Counted from the stretch's first letter, positions 3,221-62,059 are shown. The stretch is 64,000 bases of DNA from a virus (IMGVR_UViG_3300035188_001315), one strand, 5' to 3'. Notes: generated by a model from the sequence alone, not told the origin. Numbers and translations: made by a program.

Positions 3221-3252
3221 AAAAGAAAGGAGACCTAAGTCTCCTTTCTTAG
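3221..3252. terminator. bidirectional hairpin terminator
   Basis: aaggagacctaagtctcctt perfect hairpin flanked by A-run and T-rich tail. Confidence 0.55.
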
Positions 3253-3602
3253 CAATTCTAAGCTAAATCATTTTTCAACAAATTAGATATTGCTTGTACT
3301 TCAATATTTACTACACCCAATACACCTAGTGCAGCCCACCCAAAAAATACAACATTATGTTCATATAAGGTCGTTACTCTTATACCGCTTGTTAAGCTGC
3401 TTATAGTTTCCTATAAGATCGGACTATATCTTTATCCATTTCTGGATACTACCCATTTCCACTTACTTAAGTGTACTCCCTTTCGGGATAGTCTCTGAAC
3501 CTTAAACTTATTACTAAGTTTCTTGGCTGCTGATTGTCCTTTCGGATGTCCCAGCAATTAAAGTAGTTTTCATTATATTATTACTAATATAAGGAGCCTG
3601 TA

Positions 3603-4268
3603 TTATTTTGACCCATAATGTAAAGGGGCTACAAATAACTCCTCCATAAACCAGAATGTGTGTCCCCATTCATTTAATCCAACGTTTGGAAGAATCATAA
3701 ATGGACCAATTACAGATACCATGTATTGTAATGGTAAACCTTGTTGATAGGTTGGCAATCTTGTTTTAGCATATAAAAATGCAGCAACACCTGTAATAAT
3801 GTAAATTGGATAACTTAAATAAAACTCAATAACATGACTTGGTGTAAAGTCAGTATCACGGACAATCGTTTGATGCCATGTACCATCTTGTTCTGTAAAG
3901 TATGATGCACCATAATAAATCGCAATACCATACATTACCAACCAAATCCAATGTGTGAAGTGTCGTCTCAATTCCTCACGAGGAGTAATTGACATTACTT
4001 TTCGATCACGTGTCTTCCAAATATAACCCCATAATACTGAAGCAGTAATTACTTCAAGTACCATTTCAATGTAAAGGAAATTCATCCAATACGTTTCAAA
4101 CTCCGGTGCAAATGAATCTAAGCCGGCTGACCAACCATAGACTCCTTCATACCAACGAACCCAACCATAAAATACAACGTATAACGCTGCACCTGCTAAC
4201 ATAGCTTTTTTGTTTAAAAGAGAAGATTCTTTTACTTCTGCTTTTACCATTTCTACTGTTGCTGACAT
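3603..4268 (-). CDS. pmoC: ammonia/particulate methane monooxygenase subunit C family protein (PmoC/AmoC-like), C-terminally short
   Basis: Translation carries the conserved blocks WVRWYEGVYGWSAGLDSFAPEFETYWMNF, WGYIWKTRDRK, SYFTEQDGTWHQTIVRDTDFTPSHV, MILPNVGLNEWGHTFWFMEELFVAPLHYG, diagnostic of PmoC/AmoC. AGGAGA RBS 7 nt before the MSATVEMV start. Ends right after PLHYG, so the last TM helix of bacterial homologues is missing. Confidence 0.85.
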   Translation of the reverse strand: MSATVEMVKAEVKESSLLNKKAMLAGAALYVVFYGWVRWYEGVYGWSAGLDSFAPEFETYWMNFLYIEMVLEVITASVLWGYIWKTRDRKVMSITPREELRRHFTHWIWLVMYGIAIYYGASYFTEQDGTWHQTIVRDTDFTPSHVIEFYLSYPIYIITGVAAFLYAKTRLPTYQQGLPLQYMVSVIGPFMILPNVGLNEWGHTFWFMEELFVAPLHYGSK

Positions 4269-4537
4269 GTTGTTTCTCCTAATCAAGGGAAAAAATATAA
4301 ACGTAGTGTACCAACACGGCACACTTCAACTTGAGTTAAAACAGTTTATAACAAACCTTAAAACTTAGTGTTTTACTCTGTTATTATAAACTGGGAGATA
4401 TTATACAAAAAAGTTTCAAAAACAAAATATTTTTAAAAAAAAAATTTAAAAAATGTTTCTGTCTATATTTTAAAGCAAAAAAAAATGTGTTCGTTAAACG
4501 CATTTTTTTCATAAGTATATGTTATTTAAATATTATA

Positions 4538-23275: not shown

Positions 23276-24079
23276 ATGTTGGAAAAAGCAAAACAGATTA
23301 TTAAAGATGCTGATGTAGTCATTTTGATGACCGGTGCTGGAATGTCAGCTGAAAGTGGGTTAGATACTTTTCAGAATACAACCAACAGTAGAAAAAAAGT
23401 TAAAAACCAAAAAATCACCTATGCAAACTTAACTACTCAGGAAGCATTCAAAGAGAACAATGAGTTAGCATGGACTTTCCATGGTCAAAGATTTAACTCC
23501 TATAAAACTACTAAACCCCATAAGGGTTATAAAATGTTACTCGATCTTGTAAAAGAAAAAGAGGATCATTTTGTGGTAACATCAAATATTGATGGTGCTC
23601 ATCATAAAGTGGGTTTTGATAATGTGTATGAAATTCATGGTCGATTACATAAATTTCAATGTATTGAGTGTGATGATGTTTGGTCTGCACCAGAAGATAC
23701 TTTTTTTGATGTTGATGTAAAATCTTACACTTTAAAGAATGAAGTTCCAAAATGTGTTTGTGGTGGAATTACTCGCCCCAATGTAATGATGTTTGGTTAT
23801 GATACAGGTTTTAACAAAACTGAAACGAATCAGCAATCTAAGGCGTTTAATGAATTTATGGTTAAATATGATAAAGGTGACCATAAAATCGCAATCATTG
23901 AAATTGGTGCAGGTGAATCAGTTCCTACTATTAGAACAATGAGTGAATTTATACATGAAAGAGTTCCAGGGGCAACATTAATCAGAATCAATCCAACAGA
24001 TACATTTGTTCCTGATGTGGACGCTATTTCGATAAAAATGACCGCCTTGGAAGCAATTGAAAGTTTAATTAATTTTTGA
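23276..24079 (+). CDS. SIR2-family NAD-dependent deacylase/ADP-ribosyltransferase (sirtuin)
   Basis: GAGMSAESGL nucleotide-binding motif, TSNIDGAHH, HG, four-Cys zinc ribbon (CIEC ... CVCG), GAGES motif. Confidence 0.7.
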   Translation: MLEKAKQIIKDADVVILMTGAGMSAESGLDTFQNTTNSRKKVKNQKITYANLTTQEAFKENNELAWTFHGQRFNSYKTTKPHKGYKMLLDLVKEKEDHFVVTSNIDGAHHKVGFDNVYEIHGRLHKFQCIECDDVWSAPEDTFFDVDVKSYTLKNEVPKCVCGGITRPNVMMFGYDTGFNKTETNQQSKAFNEFMVKYDKGDHKIAIIEIGAGESVPTIRTMSEFIHERVPGATLIRINPTDTFVPDVDAISIKMTALEAIESLINF

Positions 24080-31585: not shown

Positions 31586-32443
31586 ATGAAAAAATTATTA
31601 CTGACTCTTATGTTATTATCTCCGTTAACTTTAGTAAGTTGTAGTAAAGTTCCTGCAGGTACAGTAGGGATTAAAGTGCATTTACTAGGTGGTGATAAAG
31701 GTGTAGATACACAAGAACTATCACCTGGGTTGTATTGGATTGGTATGAATGAAGATTTATATACATTTCCAACATTTACACAAAATTATACCTGGACTAA
31801 AGATGATAAAGAAGGTAGCCCAAACGATGAATCCATTACTTTCCAAACGAAAGAAGGTTTAAGTGCTAACGCAGATATTGGTATTTCGTACCACATTCAA
31901 CCTGAAAAAACCTCTGTACTATTTCAAAAATATAGAAAAGGTGTTCGAGAAATTACGGATGTATATATTCGCAACATGGTTCGAGATTCAATCAATATTG
32001 AAGCAAGTACCCAATTAATTGAATCTGTGTATGGTTCTGGAAAAGCTGATCTAATTACTAATACTGAAAAACGTATTCAACATGAATTATTAGATACTGG
32101 CATTGTATTAGAACATCTATATTGGATTGGTGAAATTAGATTACCTCCATCCGTGGTTGCCTCTTTAACCAATAAGGTAAATGCATCCCAAATTTCACAA
32201 CAAAAACAACAGGAAATTGAACAGGCCAAAGCAGATGCATTAAAAGCTCAGGCGGTTGCAGAAGGGGAAGCGAATGCTAAGTTAACACTAGCTCGTGCTG
32301 ATGCTGAAGCAATTAGATTGCGTGGTGAAGCAATCAAAAATAACCCAAGTGTAGTTCAGTTAAACGCAATTGAACGATGGGATGGACACTTACCACAAAT
32401 CACTTCTGGTGCAACCCCTTTTGTGGATTTAACCAAAAAATAA
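31586..32443 (+). CDS. SPFH/band-7 (stomatin/HflKC-like) domain lipoprotein
   Basis: Lipobox LTLVSC; C-terminal Ala/Glu/Gln-rich coiled coil typical of SPFH proteins. Confidence 0.6.
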   Translation: MKKLLLTLMLLSPLTLVSCSKVPAGTVGIKVHLLGGDKGVDTQELSPGLYWIGMNEDLYTFPTFTQNYTWTKDDKEGSPNDESITFQTKEGLSANADIGISYHIQPEKTSVLFQKYRKGVREITDVYIRNMVRDSINIEASTQLIESVYGSGKADLITNTEKRIQHELLDTGIVLEHLYWIGEIRLPPSVVASLTNKVNASQISQQKQQEIEQAKADALKAQAVAEGEANAKLTLARADAEAIRLRGEAIKNNPSVVQLNAIERWDGHLPQITSGATPFVDLTKK

Positions 32444-40899: not shown

Positions 40900-40935
40900 A
40901 ATAAATGGTAAATTTAATTTTTTTTGGAGGTAATT

Positions 40936-41604
40936 ATGAAAAAATATCCTAGAACATATCATTTACCTTTTAGTCCAGAGGTTCATAGTGATGATAAAAT
41001 TTGTGATTTGGGTGATTTAAATCGTATAATTGATGAAAAAATTGAAGTAGTTATCTTAGTTAAGCTAGATGGTGGTAATGCATGTTTATCAAAAGATGGA
41101 GTTTTTGCAAGAACACACGCACAAGAAACTTCCTGTCCAACGTTTGATTTTATAAAAAATGTGCATTATTATCAAAATTTAAATGACTTAACTGAACAAA
41201 ATTTAAAAATTTTTGGTGAAAATATGTTCGCAGTGCACTCAATTGTGTACGAAAATCTCAAAGATTATTTTTATGTTTTCAATATTTTGGACGAAAATTC
41301 AAATAATTTTTTAAGTCATGATGAAGTTGATGAATGGGCTACAGCCCACAAAATGCAAGTGGTTCCAAAAATTTACGAAGGGGTGATTCCTTCTTTGACA
41401 TGGTTAGAAAAATATTTGGCACTGATGTTGTCAAAAAATGACCTTGGTGGTCCGCGAGAAGGATTTGTTATTCGCACAAAAAAAGCATTTTCAAGTGATG
41501 ATTTTTCAAAAAATGTGTTCAAATATGTTAGAAAAGATCACGTACAAGACAAAAATAATCACTGGTCACGTAACTGGGTTCAGCAACCAAAATTAGTAAA
41601 GTGA
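40936..41604 (+). CDS. RNA ligase-like nucleotidyltransferase
   Basis: N-terminal KKYPRTYHLPFSPE signature and KLDGGN (motif I KxDG). GGAGG RBS. Confidence 0.55.
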   Translation: MKKYPRTYHLPFSPEVHSDDKICDLGDLNRIIDEKIEVVILVKLDGGNACLSKDGVFARTHAQETSCPTFDFIKNVHYYQNLNDLTEQNLKIFGENMFAVHSIVYENLKDYFYVFNILDENSNNFLSHDEVDEWATAHKMQVVPKIYEGVIPSLTWLEKYLALMLSKNDLGGPREGFVIRTKKAFSSDDFSKNVFKYVRKDHVQDKNNHWSRNWVQQPKLVK

Positions 41605-41812
41605 AATTCTTGGAGGAAAAATGCAAGCATATGGGTTAAAAAGGTTCCTAAGTGTAAGAAAAAAATCTACAAAACGACATTGGAAACATGTTGCTAGAGC
41701 CTCTGTAAAAAAAATAATTTGTGAAAATTTTTAATTTTTTTTGGAAAAAACTCTTGACAATTGAGAATATTTTTGCTATAATAACCCATCAATCAAATAA
41801 AGGAAATTGAAA

Positions 41813-42901
41813 ATGAAACGAGTAATCAAATATTCAAGTATCGAACAGTTCAACCAAGTTATTCGTACTGTAAAAGAACGTGCAGCATTTATGTATTTTG
41901 ATGAAGAAACACAAAAAGCTGTGTTTGATCCTGCACCTAACTATCCAGTAGTATTAGCTAAAGTTACTGAAAAAATTCACGGTACTAATGGTTCGATTTG
42001 TTTTTCTAATCCAGATGGTTTTTGGGTTCAATCTAGAACTAATATTATTACCCCAGAATCCGATAATGCGTCATGTGCGTCGTACGCCATGAAAAATAAA
42101 GATGAATGGTTATCGATCGTAAACTCTTTAGCGACCGAGTATAATATCGACCTAGATAATAACATTATCGTGATGTATTTTGAATGGTGTGGTGATGGCA
42201 TTCAGAAAAAAACTGCGTTAACTGGTACGTCAGATAAAATGGCAATTATTTTTAGTCATTTTAAAGTGGAACCAATTGATGACGTCGATGAAGATGATGT
42301 GGGATCAGTGCAGTCGAATTGGTTTGAAACAAAAGTAGGTGATAAATGGGTTTCTTCACCTGAAGCTAACATTTTCAATATCAACGATTTCCCAACTTAT
42401 GAATTCACAATCGATTTTAATAAACCATTAATGGTTCAAAATGAGATGATCTCGTTGGTTAAAGAAGTAATTGAACCTGCTTCACCAGTTGGCAAGAAAT
42501 TCGGTTTTGATGCAAACATTGGTGAAGGAATCGTAGTTACATTTATTTTTAAAGACAGATTATATAAATTCAAGGTAAAAGGTGAGGCTCACACAACTTC
42601 TAAAGTAAAAACGTTGAATAGAGTTGATGATGAAAAATTGCAAAAAATTCAGGATATTGCTCAGAAAGTTTCACCGGTCTGGAGACTTGAACAAATGTTT
42701 GATTTGGCAATTGATGCCTTAAATGGTGGTAAACCCGATATGACCAAAATGGGTGATTTCATTAGACTGATTTCTAATGATATTATCAAGGAAGAAATTG
42801 ATATTATCATTGATGCAGGTTTAGAACACAAAACCATTATGCCTGTTGTTTCTACAATTGCCAGACAGTTCTTTAAAGAAAAATGTCTAGAATCTGAATG
42901 A
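41813..42901 (+). CDS. Rnl2-family RNA ligase-like protein
   Basis: EKIHGTN matches T4 Rnl2 motif I (KIHGTN). Promoter at about 41752; terminator at 42912-42941. Confidence 0.55.
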   Translation: MKRVIKYSSIEQFNQVIRTVKERAAFMYFDEETQKAVFDPAPNYPVVLAKVTEKIHGTNGSICFSNPDGFWVQSRTNIITPESDNASCASYAMKNKDEWLSIVNSLATEYNIDLDNNIIVMYFEWCGDGIQKKTALTGTSDKMAIIFSHFKVEPIDDVDEDDVGSVQSNWFETKVGDKWVSSPEANIFNINDFPTYEFTIDFNKPLMVQNEMISLVKEVIEPASPVGKKFGFDANIGEGIVVTFIFKDRLYKFKVKGEAHTTSKVKTLNRVDDEKLQKIQDIAQKVSPVWRLEQMFDLAIDALNGGKPDMTKMGDFIRLISNDIIKEEIDIIIDAGLEHKTIMPVVSTIARQFFKEKCLESE

Positions 42902-51844: not shown

Positions 51845-51931
51845 ATGAATGAAGCAGCATTGGAAAGAATGTTTGAATATGTGGTAGCTGGTACGGCGGT
51901 ATTCATTGTGGTAACAATACTCGGTATGTAA
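51845..51931 (+). CDS. 28-aa transmembrane peptide (family member 1)
   Basis: MNEAALERMFEYVVAGTAVFIVVTILGM directly after a cassette promoter/leader; paralogue at 57166. Confidence 0.35.
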   Translation: MNEAALERMFEYVVAGTAVFIVVTILGM

Positions 51932-53977: not shown

Positions 53978-54064
53978 ATGAAAAATGTTATTGAGTGGTT
54001 ACAATTGGTGGTTATTGGTTTAGGTATGGCGGTTGTGTTTGCTGGTTGGTGGTTGGGTTATTAA
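53978..54064 (+). CDS. 28-aa transmembrane peptide
   Basis: MKNVIEWLQLVVIGLGMAVVFAGWWLGY after TTGATT-17-TACAAT promoter and AGGAGAT RBS. Confidence 0.3.
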   Translation: MKNVIEWLQLVVIGLGMAVVFAGWWLGY

Positions 54065-54110
54065 GAAGAAGCCTCCTAGGCAATCAATCTTAATTCTCGG
54101 AGAAATAAAA

Positions 54111-54341
54111 ATGAATAACGAAGAACTACAAGCAAAGTTTGATGTGTTTGAAGATGTGGTTAGAGAACACAGTAAGCGTGAAACGGTCGGTGAAGGTGAA
54201 GTTTGTTATCCCTTTCTTGCGGGTTACCTTCCCTCGTTCTACAGTAGTTTGCTCACAGACTTAGAACTAACTAATGAACAGATTAAAAAAGTTAATGCCC
54301 GAATTGATTACCACATAGATAAATTAGTACAGATAAATTAA
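54111..54341 (+). CDS. hypothetical protein
   Basis: ORF with cGGAGAaataaaaATG. Confidence 0.4.
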   Translation: MNNEELQAKFDVFEDVVREHSKRETVGEGEVCYPFLAGYLPSFYSSLLTDLELTNEQIKKVNARIDYHIDKLVQIN

Positions 54342-54423
54342 TTCAATTATTCAAAAAAAGTTCTTGACATTGTATGGTTGATTAGGTATAATTACCCATA
54401 CTTAACAAAACGGAGAAGTAAAA

Positions 54424-54603
54424 ATGTTTAAATTAGTAATCACATTAATGTTTCACATTTCAACACCAGCTACAATCAGCACATTTGAGTACGATTCGTT
54501 AACAGACTGCTTGAAACACAGAGAAGAAAAAGTTCAAGTTCTTGATAAAATGAATCAAGAGTCAATCATCATTGGTTACAGTGCTGTTTGTGGTAAAGCG
54601 TAA
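54424..54603 (+). CDS. small secreted protein (59 aa)
   Basis: Cassette promoter at about 54364; hydrophobic N-terminus, two Cys; resembles 28652-28840. Confidence 0.35.
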   Translation: MFKLVITLMFHISTPATISTFEYDSLTDCLKHREEKVQVLDKMNQESIIIGYSAVCGKA

Positions 54604-54790
54604 TTTATTGATAAACAGGTGAAGGGAATGGTTGTTAATGAATTAATCGAAAAATTAAACCAAACCAAAAATAAAAATTTAGAAGTATTGATGGACCCCT
54701 TACAGAATCATAACTAGAAATCATAACTAAAAATCATAAGTAGGAGCATATTAATATGCTCCTTTTTTAACGACTGAGAGATCATTTACT

Positions 54791-55165
54791 ATGTTACAAT
54801 TATTCAAAACTCTACTTTCAAAACCATTATCTGCAAGTGAATTGCGAGAAAAAGCAGAAAAGGTAAAATCTAAAAATATGGTGATTGGTGCTAAAAAATT
54901 AATTGATTCAATTGATAACACCCTGATTGAAAGATCTGAACAAGGTGTTAAATCTGGAATCATTTCAGTTTATTCGTCGTTTAGTGGTTACATATTACAA
55001 GAAGGAAAATTGTGCACCCTAACGTATGTGGCGGCCGATGCTGACATTCTCAAAGTCGTAACTGCCAAATGTGTCGATGAATATCGTAGTCGGGGTTATG
55101 ATGTAACCGTTGACCGAGTTGAAAGAGAAGATGGAAAATTTCAAATCATCACTATAGCATGGTAA
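54791..55165 (+). CDS. hypothetical protein (124 aa)
   Basis: ORF after terminator hairpin at 54741-54768. Confidence 0.45.
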   Translation: MLQLFKTLLSKPLSASELREKAEKVKSKNMVIGAKKLIDSIDNTLIERSEQGVKSGIISVYSSFSGYILQEGKLCTLTYVAADADILKVVTAKCVDEYRSRGYDVTVDRVEREDGKFQIITIAW

Positions 55166-55178
55166 CGAGGTGATTAAA

Positions 55179-55577
55179 ATGGCGTATCGCTCTACCATTG
55201 CCATTGCGGTATACGGAAACAAAGGAAAATTAACCGAGTTAAAATCCTACTATTTGCGTGAAGTGGAAAAGTTAAATGATCCCGATGTGATCGATGATTT
55301 AAATACTATGATTAGTGCAAGCATCAACCATACAGGGAAACCTATTTGGGATGACGAATCCGGTGAATTTTTCTTCTACGCCACTAGGGTAATATGGTGG
55401 CCGAGGTATCCTACTGTTAGTTTATTTGATGGAATATTTGAGAAATCACAAGAGCTAGGATTGTATGCAGAATCGATTCGCATTGGAGATGAATTAAAAG
55501 ATATTGAGGTACATTATGCTGATGGTGATGCCGAATGTGAGCGTCGTTTAAAAGTGTCTAGAGCAATTTTATTTTAG
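55179..55577 (+). CDS. hypothetical protein
   Basis: ORF with GAGGTGAT RBS. Confidence 0.45.
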   Translation: MAYRSTIAIAVYGNKGKLTELKSYYLREVEKLNDPDVIDDLNTMISASINHTGKPIWDDESGEFFFYATRVIWWPRYPTVSLFDGIFEKSQELGLYAESIRIGDELKDIEVHYADGDAECERRLKVSRAILF

Positions 55578-55585
55578 CAGAAGAC

Positions 55586-55646
55586 TTGACATTTAACATC
55601 AAGTCAATTATAATAGCTCATACTTAATAAATTGGAGATACAGAAA
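55586..55646 (+). promoter_or_regulatory. promoter/leader cassette (representative of at least 12 copies)
   Basis: TTGACA (55586) - 17 - TATAAT (55609), then conserved leader agctcatacttaataaattggagatacagaaaATG. Near-identical copies at about 55918, 57600, 58182, 58914; related copies at 49321, 50170, 51784, 54364, 57095, 59866. Confidence 0.6.
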
Positions 55647-55910
55647 ATGAAAAAATTAATGGTTGCTTTGGTATTGATGGTAATCACTGGAGTGGTTGAA
55701 GCAAAAGGGTCTGCCGGTGCTGCGGGTCATGGTGGTGGTCATGCAGCATCAATCGTACATGTAGTTAGTGCGGGTCATGTAGTTACTTATGGGTCTGCCA
55801 ATAACCAATCCAATACAAATACCGGTGAATTAAAAGAGATGACAACAATCCAAAAGGTTCTTACTGGTGGAATTGTACTTTTATTTTTAGGTGCGTTTGT
55901 TAATCTTTAG
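55647..55910 (+). CDS. His-rich secreted C-terminally anchored mini-protein (family member 1)
   Basis: Signal peptide MKKLMVALVLMVITGVVEA, His-rich core GHGGGHAASIVHVVSAGHVV, C-terminal TM helix. Confidence 0.5.
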   Translation: MKKLMVALVLMVITGVVEAKGSAGAAGHGGGHAASIVHVVSAGHVVTYGSANNQSNTNTGELKEMTTIQKVLTGGIVLLFLGAFVNL

Positions 55911-55979
55911 ATCAGTACTTGACATTTAACATTAAAACAGTTATAATAAATCAAACTTAATAAATTGGAGATACAGAAA

Positions 55980-56150
55980 ATGATTAGAACTAAAGTGGAT
56001 AAATCAAAAGCCTGGTTCACAGGTGACAAAGTGTGGTTAGCACAAAATGATACTAAAACTAATCAAACCTACTTTGTTAGCAACACTGGTAACGAAATAA
56101 AAACAAGTGTACCGTGTAAAAATTATTCACAAAAACCATTTTCTTTTTAA
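55980..56150 (+). CDS. hypothetical protein
   Basis: ORF after cassette copy. Confidence 0.4.
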   Translation: MIRTKVDKSKAWFTGDKVWLAQNDTKTNQTYFVSNTGNEIKTSVPCKNYSQKPFSF

Positions 56151-56165
56151 ACCTCGGAGAAAAAA

Positions 56166-56411
56166 ATGAATATGACAGTTGCCGAGTTACTTGAAAAATT
56201 ATTAGCTAAAAATGTTTTGGTAACTTTTGAAAATGATATAGTAAATTATATTAACAATAAGTGTATTGTTAATGTCAATGGTAATATTATTAATGGGATT
56301 TTTCAATACGAAAATAAATCTATTTTCATTGAATTTGACGACCAGTCAGGTAATCAATATTATCCAGGGGAAATTGTTTCGGTTTATTTTTATCGACTAG
56401 AAGAATTATAA
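56166..56411 (+). CDS. hypothetical protein (81 aa)
   Basis: ORF with cGGAGAaaaaaATG. Confidence 0.4.
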   Translation: MNMTVAELLEKLLAKNVLVTFENDIVNYINNKCIVNVNGNIINGIFQYENKSIFIEFDDQSGNQYYPGEIVSVYFYRLEEL

Positions 56412-56489
56412 TTTTCGAGATAAGAAAGTGTTTGGCATTGTATGGTTGATTAGGTATAGTCCATCACACTATAAACCGGAGAAATGAAA

Positions 56490-56668
56490 ATGACTAATAA
56501 AATTAAATTTAAAACTATCATTAAATCTGACCATGACCATGTTTGACACCGAAGTCAACAGACACTTAAATGATGTGTGGAAATTACAGGGTAGCGTGGG
56601 CGTAGGAATTAACCCTTCTAATCGAAACTATTGCTATTCAATCGATGTTATTAAAGAGGTGGAGTAAG
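56490..56668 (+). pseudogene. frameshifted DUF1737-like paralogue
   Basis: MTNKIKFKTIIKSDHDHV-stop, then out of frame FDTEVNRHLNDVWKLQGSVG; both parts align to the 51987-52244 product. Upstream promoter degenerate (TTGGCA ... TATAGT). Confidence 0.45.
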
Positions 56669-56672
56669 CCTA

Positions 56673-56858
56673 ATGGAAAAGGATGATTTAATTGAACGTG
56701 CGGCACTAGCATTAGAAAAGGATAAAGTACGTCAATATGGTTGGTCTAAAAAAGAGTTCGAGATTTGGTGTTACTCTGATAATAGAGGAATAAAATCTTT
56801 TGCTGAGTCTAAAAAACAAGCAACAATTGTTTATGATATTATAAATGTGCTTACTTAA
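56673..56858 (+). CDS. hypothetical protein (61 aa)
   Basis: ORF. Confidence 0.4.
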   Translation: MEKDDLIERAALALEKDKVRQYGWSKKEFEIWCYSDNRGIKSFAESKKQATIVYDIINVLT

Positions 56859-56872
56859 TAACGGAGAACAAA

Positions 56873-57082
56873 ATGGCTTACACATACGCGGAATTTTGTC
56901 AATGGTTGGTATCGGGCGACAGCAACTCGCTAAGACAAGGACTCTACGTCAGTGTTGATGTTCGTAGAAATTTCTTACTAAAAGACCAAAATAAAATAAT
57001 TAGACACGGTGGCGTAATTAGTCCGGAATGGGAAAACATGGGCTCTGATGTTTATTTCGTAAAATTTGTTGGAAATGAATAA
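56873..57082 (+). CDS. hypothetical protein (69 aa)
   Basis: ORF with cGGAGAacaaaATG. Confidence 0.4.
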   Translation: MAYTYAEFCQWLVSGDSNSLRQGLYVSVDVRRNFLLKDQNKIIRHGGVISPEWENMGSDVYFVKFVGNE

Positions 57083-57165
57083 AAAAGTGCTTGACATTGT
57101 CGGAACACTAAGGTATAATGAATCATACTTAATTGAAAAGGCGTTAACGCCAAACGGAGAGAAAA

Positions 57166-57252
57166 ATGAATAACGAAATCCTAGAACAAGTGTTTGAATC
57201 TGTGTTAGCTGGAGCGTTTGTATTTATCGTTGTAACTGTTCTGAGCCTATAG
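57166..57252 (+). CDS. 28-aa transmembrane peptide (family member 2)
   Basis: MNNEILEQVFESVLAGAFVFIVVTVLSL after cassette promoter at about 57095. Confidence 0.35.
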   Translation: MNNEILEQVFESVLAGAFVFIVVTVLSL

Positions 57253-57262
57253 GAGAGACCTG

Positions 57263-57409
57263 ATGAAATATCAAGAATTTGTATTTGAAACTGCGTATGA
57301 TGCATGTGAGTTCGCCACAGAGTGTGGTGATAAATTCGTGAGATATAATGGTACCTCATGGAAAACTGAAGACGAAGGCGACTATGGCGTTGTGGTAGAA
57401 GGGGAATAA
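57263..57409 (+). CDS. hypothetical acidic protein (48 aa)
   Basis: Short ORF with GGAGAGACC RBS. Confidence 0.3.
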   Translation: MKYQEFVFETAYDACEFATECGDKFVRYNGTSWKTEDEGDYGVVVEGE

Positions 57410-57410
57410 T

Positions 57411-57605
57411 ATGCAAAGAGATTATTTAATCGATCGTATGAAACGCACGAATGCAAATGTTTTGAATTGCGTTGCTTGCTTACCGTTTTCTTTGGATTTA
57501 GACAAAGACCAACAAAAAATGATTGAAGAAATAGAATACATTTTGCTTCAGGCGTATGAACAAATTGATGATAAAATTGCTGAATATGCGTTAAAAAGTG
57601 CTTGA
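57411..57605 (+). CDS. hypothetical protein (64 aa)
   Basis: ORF; 3 prime end overlaps next cassette promoter. Confidence 0.35.
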   Translation: MQRDYLIDRMKRTNANVLNCVACLPFSLDLDKDQQKMIEEIEYILLQAYEQIDDKIAEYALKSA

Positions 57606-57662
57606 CAATCCATAACAGAACAATTATAATAGCTCATACTTAATAAATTGGAGATACAGAAA

Positions 57663-57920
57663 ATGAAAAAATTAATGGTTGCTTTGGTATTGATGGTAAT
57701 CACTGGAGTGGTTGAAGCAAAAGGGTCCACTGCTATTGCTCATGCCGGTATTGCCCATGCAACAGTTGCAAGTCATATGGTGGTTCATAATGTTAGTGGT
57801 CAAACCAATTCAACCACCACTGGTGAAAAATTATCAGATAAAGCTAGTACAACTATTACGGTTGCATTAATCTCACTTATTGCTATCGGGATAAGTGCTA
57901 TGGCTGGGTACAGTGAATAA
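57663..57920 (+). CDS. His-rich secreted C-terminally anchored mini-protein (family member 2)
   Basis: Identical signal peptide to member 1; core AIAHAGIAHATVASHMVVHNV; C-terminal TM. Confidence 0.5.
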   Translation: MKKLMVALVLMVITGVVEAKGSTAIAHAGIAHATVASHMVVHNVSGQTNSTTTGEKLSDKASTTITVALISLIAIGISAMAGYSE

Positions 57921-57975
57921 CAAAGTGTTTGACACTCTATAGTACATCAATCATAATAACTTCAGAGATAAAAAA

Positions 57976-58158
57976 ATGACTACATCCAAAACGAATGCTG
58001 AAAATAACTTGTCTGGTTTACGGGTTTTGATACACGACCGGTGCGAATGCTCTGTGCTAACCAAAGAACAAATCGAAGTATCCCCAGGTTACAGTTATTA
58101 TTGCCCACAATGTGATGAGGATCTATTTGCATTCGAAACTCAAACCGTGATAGTTTAA
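57976..58158 (+). CDS. small Cys protein (60 aa)
   Basis: CEC ... CPQC zinc-ribbon-like; promoter TTGACA-17-CATAAT upstream. Confidence 0.4.
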   Translation: MTTSKTNAENNLSGLRVLIHDRCECSVLTKEQIEVSPGYSYYCPQCDEDLFAFETQTVIV

Positions 58159-58239
58159 GCAGAAATAATCGAAAAAACACTTGACAATTACTGTGAGAAC
58201 AGTTACAATAGCTCATACTTAATAAATTGGAGAAGAAAA

Positions 58240-58650
58240 ATGTCAATTGAACAATCATTCTTAAGCAAATTCCCTAACGGCTATTTCTCGGTTTACCAAG
58301 CAGCGTTAGGTAATAATCATAATTTTGTTCGTTTGGGGTTAATCGGTAAAACTGAATTGTGCTCTAATAAAATCCGTGAAAACGATCCAATGCACACAGT
58401 GTTATCTATCCAACAATACGATGACCAAATTACAGTAAATTTAATCTCTGGGGGTTTATCACTTAACCCCGAAAAAGGTTCGTATTATGCTATGAACACA
58501 ATTAAATTACCATTTAGAAAATTCACAGTTAAAAACGAAAAAGAGTTATTAACCAAAATGGACAAATTTTTTGTCAAATTACGTTCGTTTGTTGATGAAC
58601 ACAAAGCAGAAATTTATCGTGTTGAACAGTACCCAGCTGGAATAATTTAA
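58240..58650 (+). CDS. hypothetical protein (136 aa)
   Basis: ORF after cassette copy. Confidence 0.5.
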   Translation: MSIEQSFLSKFPNGYFSVYQAALGNNHNFVRLGLIGKTELCSNKIRENDPMHTVLSIQQYDDQITVNLISGGLSLNPEKGSYYAMNTIKLPFRKFTVKNEKELLTKMDKFFVKLRSFVDEHKAEIYRVEQYPAGII

Positions 58651-58661
58651 GGAGAAAAAAT

Positions 58662-58901
58662 ATGACCACTGTAGCCCAACTAATCGAATACCTACAAACT
58701 CTGCCACAAGACGCAGAAGTTGATGTTCTAAAAGAAGTATCCGCAAATTGGTCAACCTGGACTGAATTTACTTCACTAGAGATTCCCGATAAATACGGTT
58801 GTTCAGATAACCTGGAAGTTTACGATTACCGAGACAACCAGTTTGTAAAAGAAGGTGACCCACGGTTCGGAAAAGTGTACGTATCTTTTGGTGAAAAATA
58901 A
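58662..58901 (+). CDS. hypothetical protein (79 aa)
   Basis: ORF with AGGAGAAAAAAT RBS. Confidence 0.45.
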   Translation: MTTVAQLIEYLQTLPQDAEVDVLKEVSANWSTWTEFTSLEIPDKYGCSDNLEVYDYRDNQFVKEGDPRFGKVYVSFGEK

Positions 58902-58972
58902 ATTTAAAAAACACTTGACATTCTATCAAAAATCAATTACAATAACTCATACTTAATAAATCGGAGAAGAAC

Positions 58973-59128
58973 ATGACTGTTAATGAATTAATCGAAAAAT
59001 TAAACCAAATCGAAAATAAGGATTTAGAAGTGGGCATGGATATTGGGGGTGCTAGTAGAGATATTGGTGAAATAGTAATGCTTGAATGTTCTGATGGTTC
59101 TACCTATGTAGAATTACAAATGGGTTAG
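58973..59128 (+). CDS. hypothetical protein (51 aa)
   Basis: After cassette copy. Truncated paralogue at 54628-54720 (MVVNELIEKLNQ ...). Confidence 0.35.
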   Translation: MTVNELIEKLNQIENKDLEVGMDIGGASRDIGEIVMLECSDGSTYVELQMG

Positions 59129-59160
59129 TTGAAAATTCCAAAAAAGCAGAGATCAATACA

Positions 59161-59301
59161 ATGAATGAAGAAACAATTGAAAAATTAAAAGTGTTAGCAG
59201 AAAGAAATTCATGGGAAGAGGATTTAACCATGAACCCCAATTTTGAGGTAGGCGAATCTTTACTAGCACAAGAAATTCTGTTTAACTTAGGGTTCAACTA
59301 A
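59161..59301 (+). CDS. hypothetical protein (46 aa)
   Basis: Short ORF. Confidence 0.25.
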   Translation: MNEETIEKLKVLAERNSWEEDLTMNPNFEVGESLLAQEILFNLGFN

Positions 59302-59303
59302 TA

Positions 59304-59471
59304 ATGAATAAAAATAGCAGTAGAATTGTTCACAGAGAATCCAACAAAGCAGATCAAAGATTGGGCATTACTTATTATACAGTCTGTGGCAAAACCAACC
59401 CCAATGTTTTAAAAGATTCAGACCCAGCTAAAGTCACCTGCAGACATTGTATGGTTGCACACACAGAATAA
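59304..59471 (+). CDS. small zinc-ribbon-like protein (55 aa)
   Basis: YYTVCGK ... VTCRHC. Confidence 0.3.
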   Translation: MNKNSSRIVHRESNKADQRLGITYYTVCGKTNPNVLKDSDPAKVTCRHCMVAHTE

Positions 59472-59491
59472 CAGAACGGAGAACATACCTA

Positions 59492-59848
59492 ATGACCACT
59501 ACATTCGACACACTTTCAAAAGAGTTAACCGATCCTTCCAAAGCCGAAGAAGCATTGGTTGCTATTATCAATCATTGCACAGAACGTAATCTTTCCTTTA
59601 CACGAATTTTAGAATTGGCAATTGAACGATCAGGGAATAAAGCAATCAAGAGTAACCCCAATGCCACAAACTTATTTAAGCTCGAAGGTGAACATATTGA
59701 AAGTGGCGAACCCTGGCAACCTTATGCTGATAAAATCTATACTACAAAAGAGCTAGCAGAATATCAAATGCAGCGTGAAATAATTGCCTATACCTACAAA
59801 GGTAAATGCGAATACGAATTTAAAATAAAAGAAATAACTATCAAATAA
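59492..59848 (+). CDS. hypothetical protein
   Basis: ORF with cGGAGAacatacctaATG. Confidence 0.45.
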   Translation: MTTTFDTLSKELTDPSKAEEALVAIINHCTERNLSFTRILELAIERSGNKAIKSNPNATNLFKLEGEHIESGEPWQPYADKIYTTKELAEYQMQREIIAYTYKGKCEYEFKIKEITIK

Positions 59849-59923
59849 ACCAAAAATAATGCTTGACATCTCTGAACACACTAAGTATAATTAGCCATAC
59901 TTAATGAAACGGAGATGTCAAAA

Positions 59924-60175
59924 ATGAAAAATGTATTATTGGTTCTGATGTTAATCTTAGCAAGTATGAATACAGTGTCTGCAAAAGGTGTTGCAGGTCA
60001 TGGTGTTGCTCATGCTACTGTTGTAGGTCACAGCACTAGTCATGGTAGTCCAACAAATCACTTTAGTCATGATAACAAGAAAGGTTTAACCAAGCAAGAA
60101 AGTGTTGCGGTGTTTATAACCTTTCTAATCGCCTCAGCATTTGGCATAACTGCCATTCGTTACTCAGACAAATAA
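59924..60175 (+). CDS. His-rich secreted C-terminally anchored mini-protein (family member 3)
   Basis: Signal peptide, core GVAGHGVAHATVVGHSTSHGSPTNHFSHD, C-terminal TM; after cassette promoter at about 59866. Confidence 0.5.
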   Translation: MKNVLLVLMLILASMNTVSAKGVAGHGVAHATVVGHSTSHGSPTNHFSHDNKKGLTKQESVAVFITFLIASAFGITAIRYSDK

Positions 60176-60191
60176 TCAAAAATAAATCGTA

Positions 60192-60216
60192 TAAAGGTGT
60201 TGACATCGACACCTTT
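60192..60216 (+). promoter_or_regulatory. palindromic operator overlapping -35 (copy 1)
   Basis: aaaggtgtTGACAtcgacaccttt, then tgaTACAAT and an 85-bp leader duplicated at 61238-61314. Confidence 0.55.
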
Positions 60217-60277
60217 ATTTGATACAATAGCTCATCAATTTAGAAATCCACTTAATTTAATCAAAAGGAAGGTACTT

Positions 60278-61207
60278 ATGTCAAATGCACAAATTCTCAC
60301 TTTGGTTTCATCAGACAGCCACACTGTTAATTTCACCGTTGGTACAGGTAAAGCGGTTTATTCTCGTACTGTTAATGCCGATGGTATTTTTTCTAAAAAA
60401 GGCTTTAGCTACCAAGTAACCGAAAATGGCATTGAATTGTTAGATGGTGACTATGTGAGCAATTCAGTAACAAGAACAGTGATGCCATTTAAACCCATTC
60501 AATCAGAATTTTCAATTAACCAACGATTCGATTTTTTAAATAAATTTACTAACATGGTATTAGATGGTGAAGTGGCATCCGAAGTTATCACTGGTGAAGG
60601 TGGTCTAGGTAAAACACACACCGTTTTAACTGCCATGACAAAACGGGGTTGGGTAGAAGGAACTCACTATGTCATCATTAAAGGTTTCTCTACACCTAAA
60701 GCACTCTATGCCACTCTCTATGAGAACAATGGTAAAGTAATCATTTTTGATGACTGTGACTCTGTATTGAAAGACCCTATTTCAGTAAACATTTTAAAAG
60801 GGGCATTAGATTCTTACGAAGTGAGAACAATTAGCTGGTTAACAAAAGGGTTTATTGAAGATGAGTACCCAGCATCTTTTGAATTCACTGGTCAAGTCAT
60901 TTTTATTTCAAACATTGGTTCGGATAGATTAGATGGGGCAATTAAATCTCGGTCAATTACAATCGATTTGAGCATGACTATCCAAGATAAAATTGAACGG
61001 ATGCAATTTATTTTACCCGAGATCCTACCTAACTACGCAATGGATGTTAAAGAAGCCGCATTGGAATTTATGGCATTTCATTCAGAAGAAGCAAGAGAAT
61101 TCAATTTGAGAACCTTAATGAAAGTTACGAAAGTGATTAACTCTTATGGATTAGAAAATTCTGACGAATGGTCACCCGCTGCAAAATACCTATTGTTGCA
61201 TGTGTAA
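60278..61207 (+). CDS. AAA-type P-loop ATPase with N-terminal unknown domain
   Basis: Walker A GEGGLGKTH, Walker B VIIFDDCD, downstream Arg-containing SRS block. Confidence 0.6.
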   Translation: MSNAQILTLVSSDSHTVNFTVGTGKAVYSRTVNADGIFSKKGFSYQVTENGIELLDGDYVSNSVTRTVMPFKPIQSEFSINQRFDFLNKFTNMVLDGEVASEVITGEGGLGKTHTVLTAMTKRGWVEGTHYVIIKGFSTPKALYATLYENNGKVIIFDDCDSVLKDPISVNILKGALDSYEVRTISWLTKGFIEDEYPASFEFTGQVIFISNIGSDRLDGAIKSRSITIDLSMTIQDKIERMQFILPEILPNYAMDVKEAALEFMAFHSEEAREFNLRTLMKVTKVINSYGLENSDEWSPAAKYLLLHV

Positions 61208-61237
61208 TTAATCAAAAATAATTGACATAAAGGTGTT

Positions 61238-61262
61238 GACACCAACACCTTTATTTGTTACA
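61238..61262 (+). promoter_or_regulatory. palindromic operator overlapping -35 (copy 2)
   Basis: aaaggtgtTGACAccaacaccttt plus the same leader as copy 1. Confidence 0.55.
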
Positions 61263-61314
61263 ATAGCTCATCAATTTAGAAATCCACTCAATTTAATCAA
61301 AAGGAAGGTACACT

Positions 61315-61567: not shown

Positions 61568-61892
61568 CCGTAAAAATGCCCACCAAACAAATTATTTACC
61601 GAAAAACGGCATAGCGAATTAAAATTTTTGTATAATAGTGACATGAAACCATTTTTTAAAAATATTCATTTAGTGGGCGAAATTAACCGTACTAGCAACT
61701 GAAAAATTGGGTTAAAAAATCGGTCGCACGGGGAAACGCTATATAAATAAGGGAAAATAGCCGAGTGTCAAAATTTTTTTACCAGATTTCGGGTTTAGAG
61801 ACGGCGGAAAAATTCTCGTTGTGCCATAAGACTTCAACCAAATTTTTTCGTGAAAAGTCCCAAAAATACCTCGAAAAATCATGAAAAGTCCT

Positions 61893-61996
61893 TCTAAAAG
61901 TTCTCCAAATTCATGCTAGTTTTCTTCTAAAAGTTCTCCAAATTCATGCTAGTTTTCTTCTAAAAGTTCTCCAAATTCATGCTAGTTTTCTTCTAA
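61893..61996. repeat. three tandem 34-bp repeats
   Basis: ttctaaaagttctccaaattcatgctagttttct x3 in noncoding DNA. Confidence 0.7.
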
Positions 61997-62059
61997 ATTT
62001 CCCCTAAATCTACTAACAGTTTCACTCTCAATATTCGGATAATTTACATGGTCACATTC

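What the first reader, a model, noticed from the sequence alone, without database searches (positions are those of the whole stretch)
55647..60175. Three paralogous His-rich, secreted, C-terminally anchored mini-proteins: candidate periplasmic metal binders on a pmoC phage
Products of 55647-55910, 57663-57920 and 59924-60175 share a signal peptide and a 25-30-aa core packed with His in Hx3H / AGH repeats (for example GHGGGHAASIVHVVSAGHVV; GVAGHGVAHATVVGHSTSHG). Each ends in a C-terminal TM helix. This predicts a periplasm-facing histidine-rich strand tethered to the inner membrane. On a genome that also carries pmoC (a copper-dependent membrane monooxygenase subunit), a triplicated periplasmic His-rich family is a plausible copper (or nickel/zinc) handling or sequestering module. 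No described family is recognisable by eye.
Basis: inference. Interest (0 to 1): 0.65.

Follow-up and report, generated by a model that had tools for sequence, protein, structure and literature searches.

The report
Phage early His-rich membrane-tethered mini-proteins
Three small genes on a methane-monooxygenase (pmoC) phage belong to an undescribed, phage-only family of exported, membrane-anchored, disordered histidine-rich proteins made early in infection; they probably bind metal at the periplasmic face, but nothing ties them specifically to pmoC.

Summary
ORFs 55647-55910 (A), 57663-57920 (B) and 59924-60175 (C) are real paralogues (BLASTP E 2e-12 to 1e-6). Each has a cleavable Sec signal peptide (AXA|KG), a 25-31-aa His-rich core and a C-terminal TM helix. 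Each sits behind its own consensus sigma-70 promoter and leader cassette. pmoC is in the window at 3603-4267(-), 52 kb away on the other strand.

Iterated searches of 1.8-5.8 billion proteins found about 30 clusters, all 74-95 aa and all metagenomic. They lie in early gene regions, and two of the contig types carry T4 hallmark genes. No Pfam, PHROG, NCBIfam or PDB match reaches threshold, and no member turned up in 185,579 bacterial or archaeal genomes. The ectodomain has no Cys and almost no acidic residues. AlphaFold2 models it as disordered. It keeps a conserved H-x5-H-x3-H triad plus variable (G)nH repeats, and Met (MxxH) in most members. dN/dS is 0.2-0.46. Relatives of this phage also carry 2-3 copies.

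Best reading (about 0.4): a metal-chelating His cluster tethered on the periplasmic face, resembling SilE/PcoE in chemistry and PmoD in layout. The pmoC and copper link is unsupported: no family member lies within 10 kb of pmoC in 80 pmoC-phage loci, none was found on IMG/VR pmoC contigs, and the literature reports PmoC as the only protein specific to pmoC-phages. The main rival is a superinfection-exclusion or envelope early protein.

The parts
55586..55614 (+). Consensus sigma-70 promoter of gene A (TTGACA-N17-TATAAT)
   Evidence: 12/12 match; it is one copy of the repeated promoter-leader cassette (families D1/D2).
55615..55646 (+). Conserved 5' leader with the ribosome-binding site (..GCTCATACTTAATAAATTGGAGATACAGAAA)
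   Evidence: Repeat families D2/D4; sequence read.
55647..55910 (+). Gene A, 87 aa. Signal peptide aa 1-19 (55647-55703, VEA|KGS). His-rich core aa 20-50 (55704-55796; His 28, 32, 38, 44, includes HGGGH). TM aa 71-87 (55857-55907).
   Evidence: Orthologue P0003 has dN/dS 0.21. HMM E=1e-22.
55605..55711 (+). Perfect 107-nt repeat, copy 1 (-10 box, leader, first 22 codons, i.e. the signal peptide)
   Evidence: 100% identical to 57621-57727. It is the core of the 164-nt repeat D3.
57602..57630 (+). Consensus sigma-70 promoter of gene B
   Evidence: 12/12 match.
57621..57727 (+). Perfect 107-nt repeat, copy 2
57663..57920 (+). Gene B, 85 aa. Signal peptide aa 1-19 (57663-57719). His core aa 20-44 (57720-57794; His 27, 32, 38, 42; AHATVASHMVVH matches the family motif H-x5-H-x3-H and contains MxxH). 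TM aa 65-82 (57855-57908).
   Evidence: Identical to P0001, which is seen on 8 or more contigs. The motif match is unique in the window.
59863..59891 (+). Consensus sigma-70 promoter of gene C
   Evidence: 12/12 match.
59924..60175 (+). Gene C, 83 aa. Signal peptide aa 1-20 (59924-59983, VSA|KGV). His core aa 21-49 (59984-60070; 6 His). TM aa 61-78 (60104-60157). Tail RYSDK.
   Evidence: Matches P0002/P0150.
3603..4267 (-). pmoC (context only, not part of the module); likely start ATG 4267, 221 aa
   Evidence: PF04896 E=3e-112. P0028 is 100% identical at 221 aa. AGGAG ribosome-binding site before the ATG.

Best explanation
A, B and C are real, separately transcribed early genes. They belong to a previously undescribed, phage-restricted family of bitopic inner-membrane proteins of about 80 aa.

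Shown or directly read from sequence:
- Each gene has a consensus sigma-70 promoter, a leader and a ribosome-binding site.
- Each protein has a canonical n-h-c signal peptide with an AXA|KG(G/S) signal-peptidase-I site.
- The ectodomain is 34-53 aa, has no Cys and almost no acidic residues, and is rich in Ala, Gly, His, Ser and often Met. AlphaFold2 models it as disordered.
- It holds a conserved H-x5-H-x3-H triad (AHATxASHxxxH) preceded by a variable number of (G)nH or HGGGH units.
- A C-terminal TM helix follows, with a conserved ..A(W/Y)SGE end.

Inferred:
- After Sec export and cleavage, the His cluster sits on the periplasmic face of the inner membrane. In a methanotroph it would also sit on the intracytoplasmic membranes.
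- It is present from the first minutes of infection.
- It chelates a divalent or monovalent transition metal (Cu most likely from the His/Met/Gly chemistry; Zn or Ni are possible).
- It therefore acts as a membrane-tethered metal sponge or hand-off site, and the copy number (1-3 genes, 3-8 His each) sets capacity.

A specific role in metallating phage PmoC is possible but has no support from linkage or distribution.
For: - Paralogy and gene reality. dN/dS is 0.21 for A vs P0003 (0.17 in the mature part) and 0.42-0.46 for other orthologous pairs.
- Family size: deep HMMER finds 6 representatives among 1.84 billion proteins; an iterated search finds 27 clusters.
- Conservation: positions conserved in at least 90% of the 27-sequence alignment are A19, K20, G21 (cleavage site), H32, S37, H38, H42, S44 and Q47. 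Three of the six conserved ectodomain positions are therefore His.
- Composition of the first 28 mature residues: A 18%, G 17%, H 16%, S 14%, M 5%; D+E under 1%; C 0%.
- Repeat-number variation changes the His count without breaking the protein: a 10-aa duplication in P0016, HGGGHGGGH in P0026, a deletion in P0025.
- Disorder: pLDDT is below 50-53 across the core in two independent AlphaFold2 runs, while the TM helix reaches 73-82.
- Early expression: 12/12 promoters directly upstream. In the contigs that carry gp32, the gene follows the gp32 terminator behind its own promoter.
- Multi-copy arrays recur in relatives: 3 copies in L235/L236 and 2 in L234.
- The only weak, sub-threshold database resemblances include small exported metal-homeostasis proteins: CzcI E=0.018, LpqS 0.039, CopL 0.072.
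- From my own knowledge, not tested here: periplasmic Cu proteins use His and Met rather than Cys; SilE/PcoE use HxxM/MxxH motifs (SilE: PMC5008109); HGGG units bind Cu(II) in the prion octarepeat.
Against: - No metal-binding measurement exists, and no significant homology to any metal protein was found.
- The NCBIfam hits score 13-16 bits against cut-offs of 35-100 and cover mostly the signal peptide plus low-complexity sequence, so they may be purely compositional.
- Window copies A and C lack Met in the core.
- There is no ATCUN motif (His at mature position 3).
- His clusters can equally serve pH sensing or protein-protein contacts.
- The conserved TM end (G..A.AWSGE) suggests a specific intramembrane partner, which a passive sponge would not need.
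- There is no linkage with any metal-related gene.
- Small exported early proteins in T4 are classically superinfection-exclusion factors.
Confidence: 0.4

Rival explanations
1. Superinfection-exclusion or envelope-protection factor. The protein is an early, Sec-exported, membrane-anchored small protein that blocks DNA entry or tail lysozyme of competing phages, like T4 Imm or Spackle. Alternatively it masks or modifies an envelope component. The divergent paralogues would target different competitors.
For: - Immediate-early promoter on every copy.
- Restricted to phages, in early gene regions, on some contigs with T4 hallmark genes.
- Multiple divergent paralogues per genome, with mosaic signal-peptide and TM modules, which looks like arms-race evolution.
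- dN/dS of 0.42-0.46 is relatively relaxed.
- The conserved TM end suggests a membrane partner.
- From my own knowledge: T4 imm and sp are early genes that encode small membrane or periplasmic proteins.
Against: - No similarity to Imm, Sp or any PHROG exclusion family. The best hit, phrog_1039 'immunity to superinfection', has E=0.41.
- A disordered, low-complexity ectodomain with variable repeat number, in which His residues are the conserved positions, is atypical for a specific protein inhibitor.
Confidence: 0.22
2. One reading: a periplasmic copper chaperone or sequestering module that serves the phage PmoC and host pMMO, for example by loading the CuC/CuD sites of newly made PmoC.
For: - The same genome carries pmoC.
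- The layout (signal peptide, periplasmic part, C-terminal TM) matches that of the pMMO-associated copper protein PmoD (PMC6189053; detail from my own knowledge).
- The His/Met/Gly chemistry suits copper.
- PmoC copper ligands face the periplasmic side (PMC7674155).
- Three copies occur in this pmoC phage.
- IMG/VR sample 3300046011 holds both pmoC-phage contigs and a family contig.
Against: - The genes are 52 kb from pmoC, on the opposite strand, in separate transcription units.
- No member or analogue lies within 10 kb of pmoC in 80 pmoC-phage loci.
- No member was found on any of the IMG/VR pmoC contigs listed, including 12 longer than 100 kb.
- The pmoC cassette moves between phage backgrounds: only about 1.2 kb is shared with L012/L013.
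- Homologues sit on 98-kb and 67-kb contigs, and no top-120 PmoC hit maps to a contig of those lengths.
Confidence: 0.1
3. A pH or proton-motive-force sensor, or a lysis or host-takeover regulator. His protonation (pKa about 6) switches the uncharged ectodomain to a polycation. That changes its membrane association or its interaction with a holin, antiholin or host transporter. It would act as an RI-like signal transducer or a membrane-perturbing early protein.
For: - The core has 16% His and virtually no other charged residues, so its net charge depends on pH alone.
- It is disordered and tethered at the membrane surface.
- It has two hydrophobic helices, like small holin or antiholin proteins.
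Against: - Transcription is early, not late.
- A conserved AXA cleavage site argues for a cleaved signal peptide rather than a signal-anchor-release or holin TM1.
- There is no adjacency to endolysin, holin or spanin genes in any locus.
- There is no homology to RI, T or other holins.
Confidence: 0.12
4. The ORFs are chance or non-functional reading frames inside a repeat-rich early region.
For: The genes are very short, of low complexity, and match no known family.
Against: - Each has a promoter, a ribosome-binding site and an ATG.
- About 30 homologous clusters occur in several contig types with the architecture conserved.
- dN/dS is 0.2-0.46.
- Identical protein B was recovered from 8 or more independent assemblies.
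Confidence: 0.02

Closest known systems
SilE / PcoE periplasmic 'metal sponges' (plasmid sil and pco systems)
   Same: - Sec-exported and small.
- Intrinsically disordered in the apo form.
- Free of Cys, with His- and Met-based motifs. MxxH is present in B and in most family members.
- Proposed role as a periplasmic metal buffer (SilE: PMC5008109).
   Different: - No detectable sequence homology.
- SilE/PcoE are soluble, about 120-140 aa mature, with many acidic residues and several HxxM/MxxH pairs.
- This family is about 65 aa mature, acid-free, rich in Gly, Ala and Ser, membrane-anchored and phage-encoded.
PmoD / AmoD (copper protein of methane and ammonia oxidisers)
   Same: - Same layout: signal peptide, periplasmic metal-binding part, single C-terminal TM helix.
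- Biological setting next to pMMO (PMC6189053; layout from my own knowledge).
   Different: - PmoD has a folded cupredoxin-like domain of about 120 aa that forms a CuA-type site, and it is encoded in or near pmo/amo operons.
- Here the ectodomain is 34-53 aa and disordered, has no Cys, shows no homology, and is not linked to pmoC.
T4 Imm and Spackle (Sp) superinfection-exclusion proteins
   Same: Small (80-100 aa) early-transcribed products of a T4-type phage, targeted to the inner membrane or periplasm (my own knowledge).
   Different: - No sequence similarity.
- Imm has two TMs and no cleaved signal peptide.
- Sp is a folded, soluble periplasmic inhibitor.
- Neither is His-rich or of low complexity.
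CzcI / CopL / LpqS small exported metal-homeostasis proteins (NCBIfam NF045614, NF033807, NF052429) and Pfam DUF6488
   Same: Signal peptide followed by a His-rich stretch; weak profile hits over residues 1-60.
   Different: Scores are 10-16 bits against cut-offs of 27-100, so these are not members. The resemblance is probably compositional. Those proteins are cellular, longer, and lack the C-terminal TM and WSGE end.
Cyanophage hli (high-light-inducible) one-helix proteins that accompany psbA
   Same: An analogy only: multi-copy, tiny single-TM proteins carried by T4-like phages that also carry a core subunit of a host membrane energy enzyme (my own knowledge).
   Different: hli genes derive from the host, bind chlorophyll, have no signal peptide, and are often linked to psbA. 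Here there is no host homologue and no linkage to pmoC.

Membership tests
SilE/PcoE metal-sponge family | Sequence or profile homology to SilE/PcoE | tested here: not met
   No Pfam or NCBIfam hit to SilE/PcoE models at E<=1 for any of 27 members.
SilE/PcoE metal-sponge family | Exported and intrinsically disordered, with His/Met motifs (HxxM/MxxH) | tested here: inconclusive
   All members have a signal peptide with an AXA site. Core pLDDT is below 50-53. MxxH is present in B and the main clade but absent from A and C.
SilE/PcoE metal-sponge family | Binds several Ag(I)/Cu(I) ions and folds on binding | not testable with these tools
   Needs ITC, CD or NMR on purified peptide.
PmoD/AmoD | Cupredoxin-like periplasmic domain with Cu ligands | tested here: not met
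   The ectodomain is 34-53 aa with no predicted strands or fold, and there is no Pfam hit.
PmoD/AmoD | Signal peptide plus C-terminal TM anchor | tested here: met
   Hydropathy and AlphaFold2 helices.
PmoD/AmoD | Encoded with pmo/amo genes | tested here: not met
   The genes are 52 kb from pmoC here. No member lies within 10 kb of pmoC in 80 loci, and no pmoC lies within 10 kb of any member.
T4 Imm / Spackle superinfection exclusion | Homology to Imm or Sp families (Pfam/PHROG) | tested here: not met
   Best PHROG hit is phrog_1039 at E=0.41 for B only; nothing in Pfam.
T4 Imm / Spackle superinfection exclusion | Early expression and envelope location | tested here: met
   Consensus sigma-70 promoters and a signal peptide plus TM. 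Both are inferred from sequence, not measured.
T4 Imm / Spackle superinfection exclusion | Blocks infection by a second phage | not testable with these tools
   Needs plating or injection assays.
CzcI / CopL / LpqS (NCBIfam) and DUF6488 (Pfam) | Score above the curated cut-off | tested here: not met
   CzcI 15.7 bits (cut-off 100), CopL 13.7 (40), LpqS 14.2 (35), DUF6488 15.4 at most (27).
Class II holins / pinholins | Two TM domains, late expression, linkage to an endolysin | tested here: not met
   There are two hydrophobic helices, but the first carries a conserved AXA cleavage site. The promoters are early-type. No lysis gene is adjacent in any locus.

The most novel reading that the evidence does not exclude
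These would be the first virus-encoded periplasmic metallochaperones or metal buffers. They would form a phage-invented family of intrinsically disordered His/Met proteins, displayed on the inner and intracytoplasmic membranes of methanotrophs early in infection. They would capture copper and either feed it to phage-made PmoC/pMMO or withhold it from host systems. Phages would thereby manipulate copper supply to methane oxidation.
Probability: 0.1. Interest if true: 0.8.

Novelty: new variant of a known kind. Interest (0 to 1): 0.42.

Why it matters
If the metal-binding reading is right, phages of freshwater bacteria, including at least one pmoC phage, would carry their own periplasmic metal-handling proteins. 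That would add trace-metal manipulation to the list of viral auxiliary functions. It would also give a very small, easily synthesised peptide to test for copper, zinc or nickel binding.

For methane-cycle biology it would matter only if a link to pMMO metallation were shown, and present evidence does not show this.

Independently of function, the locus is a clean example of early-promoter cassettes driving duplication, reshuffling and concerted evolution of small phage genes. It also defines a new family of about 30 clusters that annotation pipelines currently leave as 'hypothetical'.

Tried and rejected
1. Family libraries gave nothing at threshold: Pfam, PHROGs and NCBIfam scans of A, B, C and of all 27 members, and a PDB sequence profile search.
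2. Cultured phages gave nothing useful. blastn of 54.5-62 kb and tblastn of A against 50,697 phage records found no relative, only a 79-nt hit to Bacteroides phages inside the P-loop gene. One search failed because the query was one base too long.
3. The first profile (3 sequences) found only the window's own proteins and P0003. The family appeared only after the exhaustive HMMER search and iteration.
4. IMG/VR scans with the signal-peptide pattern and with 8-mers of B and P0008 found no relatives. 8-mers of P0014 found 2 short contigs. The degenerate AHATxASHxxxH motif gave 14 stretches, of which 1 was real.
The pattern was too permissive for that database size.
6. The promoter-leader pattern scan of IMG/VR gave mostly random AT-rich hits. 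One relative contig (L243) had 4 cassettes but no family gene in the stretch held.
7. My last IMG/VR pattern, meant for A-type members, was mis-designed: the Ser AGT codon is not covered, so it does not match window gene A. Its negative result applies only to P0003/P0026-type sequences.
8. Alignment A4 was too diverse for the search for related loci.
9. I tried to test pmoC co-occurrence by matching 'longest contig' lengths between PmoC hits and family hits. No PmoC among the best 120 of 510 sits on a contig of 97,852 or 67,345 nt. This is weak evidence only. Cluster look-up gave no accessions to link genomes.
10. Contig L007 lacks the A-to-B interval. I rejected it as firm evidence of a natural deletion, because the join lies exactly in the 107-nt perfect repeat and could be an assembly artefact.
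11. A u-spanin reading (signal at the N-terminus plus a C-terminal TM) was rejected: there is no lipobox Cys, the ectodomain is too short, and expression is early.

Full report
**1. What is in the sequence.**

- The likely starts are the ATGs at 55647, 57663 and 59924. Each lies 7-9 nt downstream of GGAG(A).
- The products (87, 85 and 83 aa) are paralogues. BLASTP gives A-B 2e-12, B-C 2e-7 and A-C 1e-6.
- An HMM built from them finds no fourth copy among 514 ORFs of the window.
- The His-rich cores hold 4/31, 4/25 and 6/29 His, against 2.1% in the window's longer ORFs (P = 4e-3 to 3e-5).
- Each protein starts with an MKK/MKN n-region, a hydrophobic h-region and an AXA|K site (VEA|KGS, VEA|KGS, VSA|KGV).
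- Each ends in a 17-18-residue hydrophobic segment.
- Two AlphaFold2 runs (4-sequence and 27-sequence alignments) give only two helices, the signal peptide and the C-terminal TM (pLDDT 73-82). The stretch between them is unstructured, with pLDDT about 45-53.
- pmoC is in the window at 3603-4322(-) as listed. It more likely starts at ATG 4267 (PF04896, E=3e-112).

**2. Transcriptional setting.**

- Each of the three genes lies directly behind a perfect TTGACA-N17-TATAAT promoter (55586, 57602, 59863).
- A conserved leader (CATACTTAATAAATTGGAGA) follows each promoter. It is part of a 64-78-nt cassette repeated at least 8 times between 54.3 and 59.9 kb.
- The window carries 31 perfect TTGACA-N16-18-TAYAAT sites, all on the + strand between 23.2 and 61.2 kb. 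This is the pattern of a host-RNA-polymerase-dependent early region.
- About 100 small + strand genes lie there, and about 11 have a hydrophobic segment. Only A, B and C combine a signal peptide with a C-terminal TM.
- A and B share a perfect 107-nt repeat (55605-55711 = 57621-57727). It covers the -10 box, the leader and the first 22 codons. Downstream of it they are only 38% identical.

**3. The family.**

- No Pfam, PHROG, NCBIfam or PDB profile match reaches threshold.
- No cultured phage has a relative.
- A profile of the three proteins recovered only themselves and P0003 from 5.8 billion proteins.
- An exhaustive HMMER search of 1.84 billion cluster representatives found six representatives.
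- Iterating gave 27 clusters of 76-95 aa. All are metagenomic, and those that carry any name are called 'hypothetical protein'. Further copies of 74 aa turned up in L235/L236.
- No member was found in 185,579 species-representative bacterial and archaeal genomes, using the patterns derived from the main clade.
- The alignment gives this consensus: MKKLM-(h-region)-A|KGG-(G)nH repeats-GHATMAHATxASHMMVHGSSxHQPDxxTGKKLTKEE-TM-AWSGE.
- Positions conserved in at least 90% of sequences are the cleavage site (A-K-G), then H32, S37, H38, H42, S44 and Q47 (B numbering). Half of the conserved ectodomain positions are therefore histidines, spaced H-x5-H-x3-H.
- The first 28 mature residues are A 18%, G 17%, H 16%, S 14%, V 7.5%, T 7.4% and M 5.4%, with under 1% acidic residues and no Cys.
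- The number of His varies from 3 to 8 through indels of repeat units: a 10-aa duplication in P0016, HGGGHGGGH in P0026, a deletion in P0025.
- dN/dS is 0.21 for A vs P0003 (0.17 in the mature part) and 0.42-0.46 for the other orthologous pairs (P0007-P0011, P0007-L093, B-P0008). These are coding genes under purifying, if somewhat relaxed, selection.

**4. Where the family lives.**

- P0007 and P0011 lie on 98-kb and 67-kb contigs that carry T4 hallmark genes: nrdA, gp33-like Trans_coact, gp59, gp32, baseplate and gp2.
- There the gene sits immediately after gp32, behind the gp32 terminator and its own promoter.
- That gp32 is closest to T4-like cyanophages, at 45-54% identity. Chen et al. relate pmoC-phages to the same group (PMC7674155).
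- P0004, P0008, P0009, P0025 and P0026 lie on contigs that share the window's promoter cassette and several neighbouring genes. These contigs carry 2-3 family copies within about 3 kb.
- Multi-copy arrays are therefore a trait of this lineage, not a peculiarity of the window.
- Within one phage the paralogues share the same signal-peptide allele. In the window, both A and B have MKKLMVALVLMVITGVVEA. In the relatives, both A-type and B-type copies have MKKLMIALMLTVIAGVAEA. The mature parts are orthologous across phages.
- This indicates concerted evolution (gene conversion) of the promoter, leader and signal-peptide module.
- In L001 the A orthologue occupies a different cassette slot than in the window, so genes move between cassettes.

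**5. The pmoC question.**

- The window's pmoC is 52 kb from the cluster, on the other strand.
- I fetched 80 of 117 IMG/VR pmoC-phage loci (pmoC ± 10 kb, 1.1 Mb in total). None holds a family member or a compositional analogue.
- IMG/VR-wide scans used the signal-peptide pattern (which covers the A and B types), 8-mers of B, P0014 and P0008, and the degenerate core motif. They found members on only two short contigs. Neither is among the 80 listed pmoC contigs, 12 of which exceed 100 kb.
- Conversely, no pmoC lies within 10 kb of any family member.
- No PmoC among the best 120 hits sits on a contig of the length of the gp32-bearing contigs that carry the family. This is weak evidence.
- Only about 1.2 kb around pmoC is shared with the closest other pmoC contigs, so pmoC itself is a mobile cassette.
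- I could not retrieve whole genomes. Whether relatives lacking pmoC carry the family as often therefore remains untested.
- On balance, the data give no support for a dedicated pmoC accessory role.

**6. Mechanism.**

Shown:
- Separate early-type promoters.
- A canonical cleavable signal peptide.
- A disordered ectodomain with no Cys and almost no acidic residues, rich in His (and often Met), with a conserved His triad.
- A C-terminal TM helix with a conserved end.

Inferred:
- N-in, ectodomain-out, C-in topology after Sec export.
- Signal-peptidase-I cleavage, leaving a mature N-terminus of KGG or KGS.
- Display of the His cluster at the periplasmic membrane surface from early in infection.

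Several features are most simply explained by metal chelation:
- The conservation of His above all other ectodomain residues.
- The tolerance of changes in repeat number.
- The use of His and Met without Cys, which is the ligand set of periplasmic copper proteins.
- The MxxH motif (as in SilE/PcoE) in B and most members.
- The HGGGH units in A, P0003, P0023 and P0026.

I give this reading about 0.4. Copper is the most likely metal, and zinc or nickel are not excluded. The weak NCBIfam resemblances to CzcI, LpqS and CopL (E 0.02-0.07) point the same way, but they are far below cut-off and may be compositional.

The rivals are:
- A superinfection-exclusion or envelope factor (0.22). It is favoured by early expression, the phage-only distribution, divergent paralogues and a conserved TM end.
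- A pH- or PMF-responsive or lysis-regulating role (0.12).
- The specific pMMO copper-loading role (0.10, a subset of the metal reading).
- Non-genes (0.02).

**7. Comparison with what is known, and novelty.**

- In chemistry and disorder the family resembles SilE/PcoE.
- In layout it resembles PmoD.
- In timing and size it resembles T4 Imm and Sp.
- It fails the homology test for all of them, and no described family contains it.

I file it as a new variant of a known kind: an exported His-rich metal-binding or early phage envelope protein. It is an undescribed, narrow, phage-restricted family. Interest is moderate. The family is real and cleanly defined, and the promoter-cassette evolution is instructive. 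However, the function is inferred from composition, and the attractive pmoC link is not supported.

Noticed in passing
window 23218-61236 (+ strand): There are 31 perfect TTGACA-N16-18-TAYAAT promoters, all on the + strand. Many are followed by the conserved leader CATACTTAATAAATTGGAGA. This is a very dense early-promoter cassette system. Gene order differs between relatives at cassette boundaries (L001, L098, L234-L236), reminiscent of the promoter-cassette-mediated shuffling described for T4-type phages.
   Followed up: partly
window 55605-55711 and 57621-57727; locus L007: A perfect 107-nt repeat covers the -10 box, the leader and the signal-peptide codons of A and B. Contig L007 (Ga0208089_1005539) joins 54072-55711 directly to 57621-58384. 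That is either a natural 2,016-nt deletion variant lacking gene A's mature part and five genes, or an assembly artefact. Paralogues within one phage share one signal-peptide allele, which indicates concerted evolution.
   Followed up: partly
window 51845-51931, 57166-57252, 53978-54064: A second mini-family: 28-aa ORFs with an acidic N-terminus and a C-terminal hydrophobic helix (MNEAALERMFEYVVAGTAVFIVVTILGM and MNNEILEQVFESVLAGAFVFIVVTVLSL). A third similar ORF exists, and each sits behind an early promoter cassette. In relative L001 the slot of 57166-57252 is occupied by the gene A orthologue.
   Followed up: no
window 61891-61997: A perfect 33-nt tandem repeat of 3.2 copies. The 227.8-kb assembly (L002) is 66 nt shorter here and shows no tandem array, so this is a copy-number polymorphism between populations or assemblies.
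   Followed up: partly
window 60170-60275 and 61206-61311: A 106-nt direct repeat (92%) holds a TTGACA/TACAAT promoter and a leader before the 309/336-aa P-loop protein (60197-61207) and again after it. The mechanical GTG start at 60197 is probably wrong, since databases call a 309-aa product.
   Followed up: no
window 3187-4386: pmoC probably starts at ATG 4267 (221 aa, identical to P0028), not at GTG 4322. Only about 1.2 kb around it is shared (88% nt) with the closest other pmoC-phage contigs (L012/L013) and the flanks differ, so pmoC behaves as a mobile cassette. The nearest cellular PmoC sequences are gammaproteobacterial (Methylococcales-type, 73-75% for named genomes).
   Followed up: partly
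window 6487-7653(-), 14838-16058(+), 23276-24079(+), 31586-32443(+), 40924-42901(+), 12859-13995(-): Unusual cargo for a phage: a PAS-HisKA-HATPase sensor kinase, a Rep3-type replication initiator, a Sir2-family protein, an SPFH/Band-7 protein with a lipoprotein-like signal (…LVSC), two adjacent RNA ligases, and an HD + AAA_33 (Pnk-like) protein.
   Followed up: no
window 54608-54695 and 58953-59040: An 88-nt repeat (81%) marks another pair of small paralogous early genes (M[VT]VNELIEKLNQ…), one of them at 58973-59128.
   Followed up: no
family alignment A4 (e.g. P0006 vs P0013, P0007 vs P0011): Family members are mosaics. The same signal-peptide or His-core module is combined with either of two TM/linker modules (…RKMTENETIGGTIIFFAFVIIVFGAAVAWSGE or …KKLTKEEGITVFVTFFTFLIITGFAVAWSGE). 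The C-terminal W-S-G-E end is conserved and unexplained.
   Followed up: no
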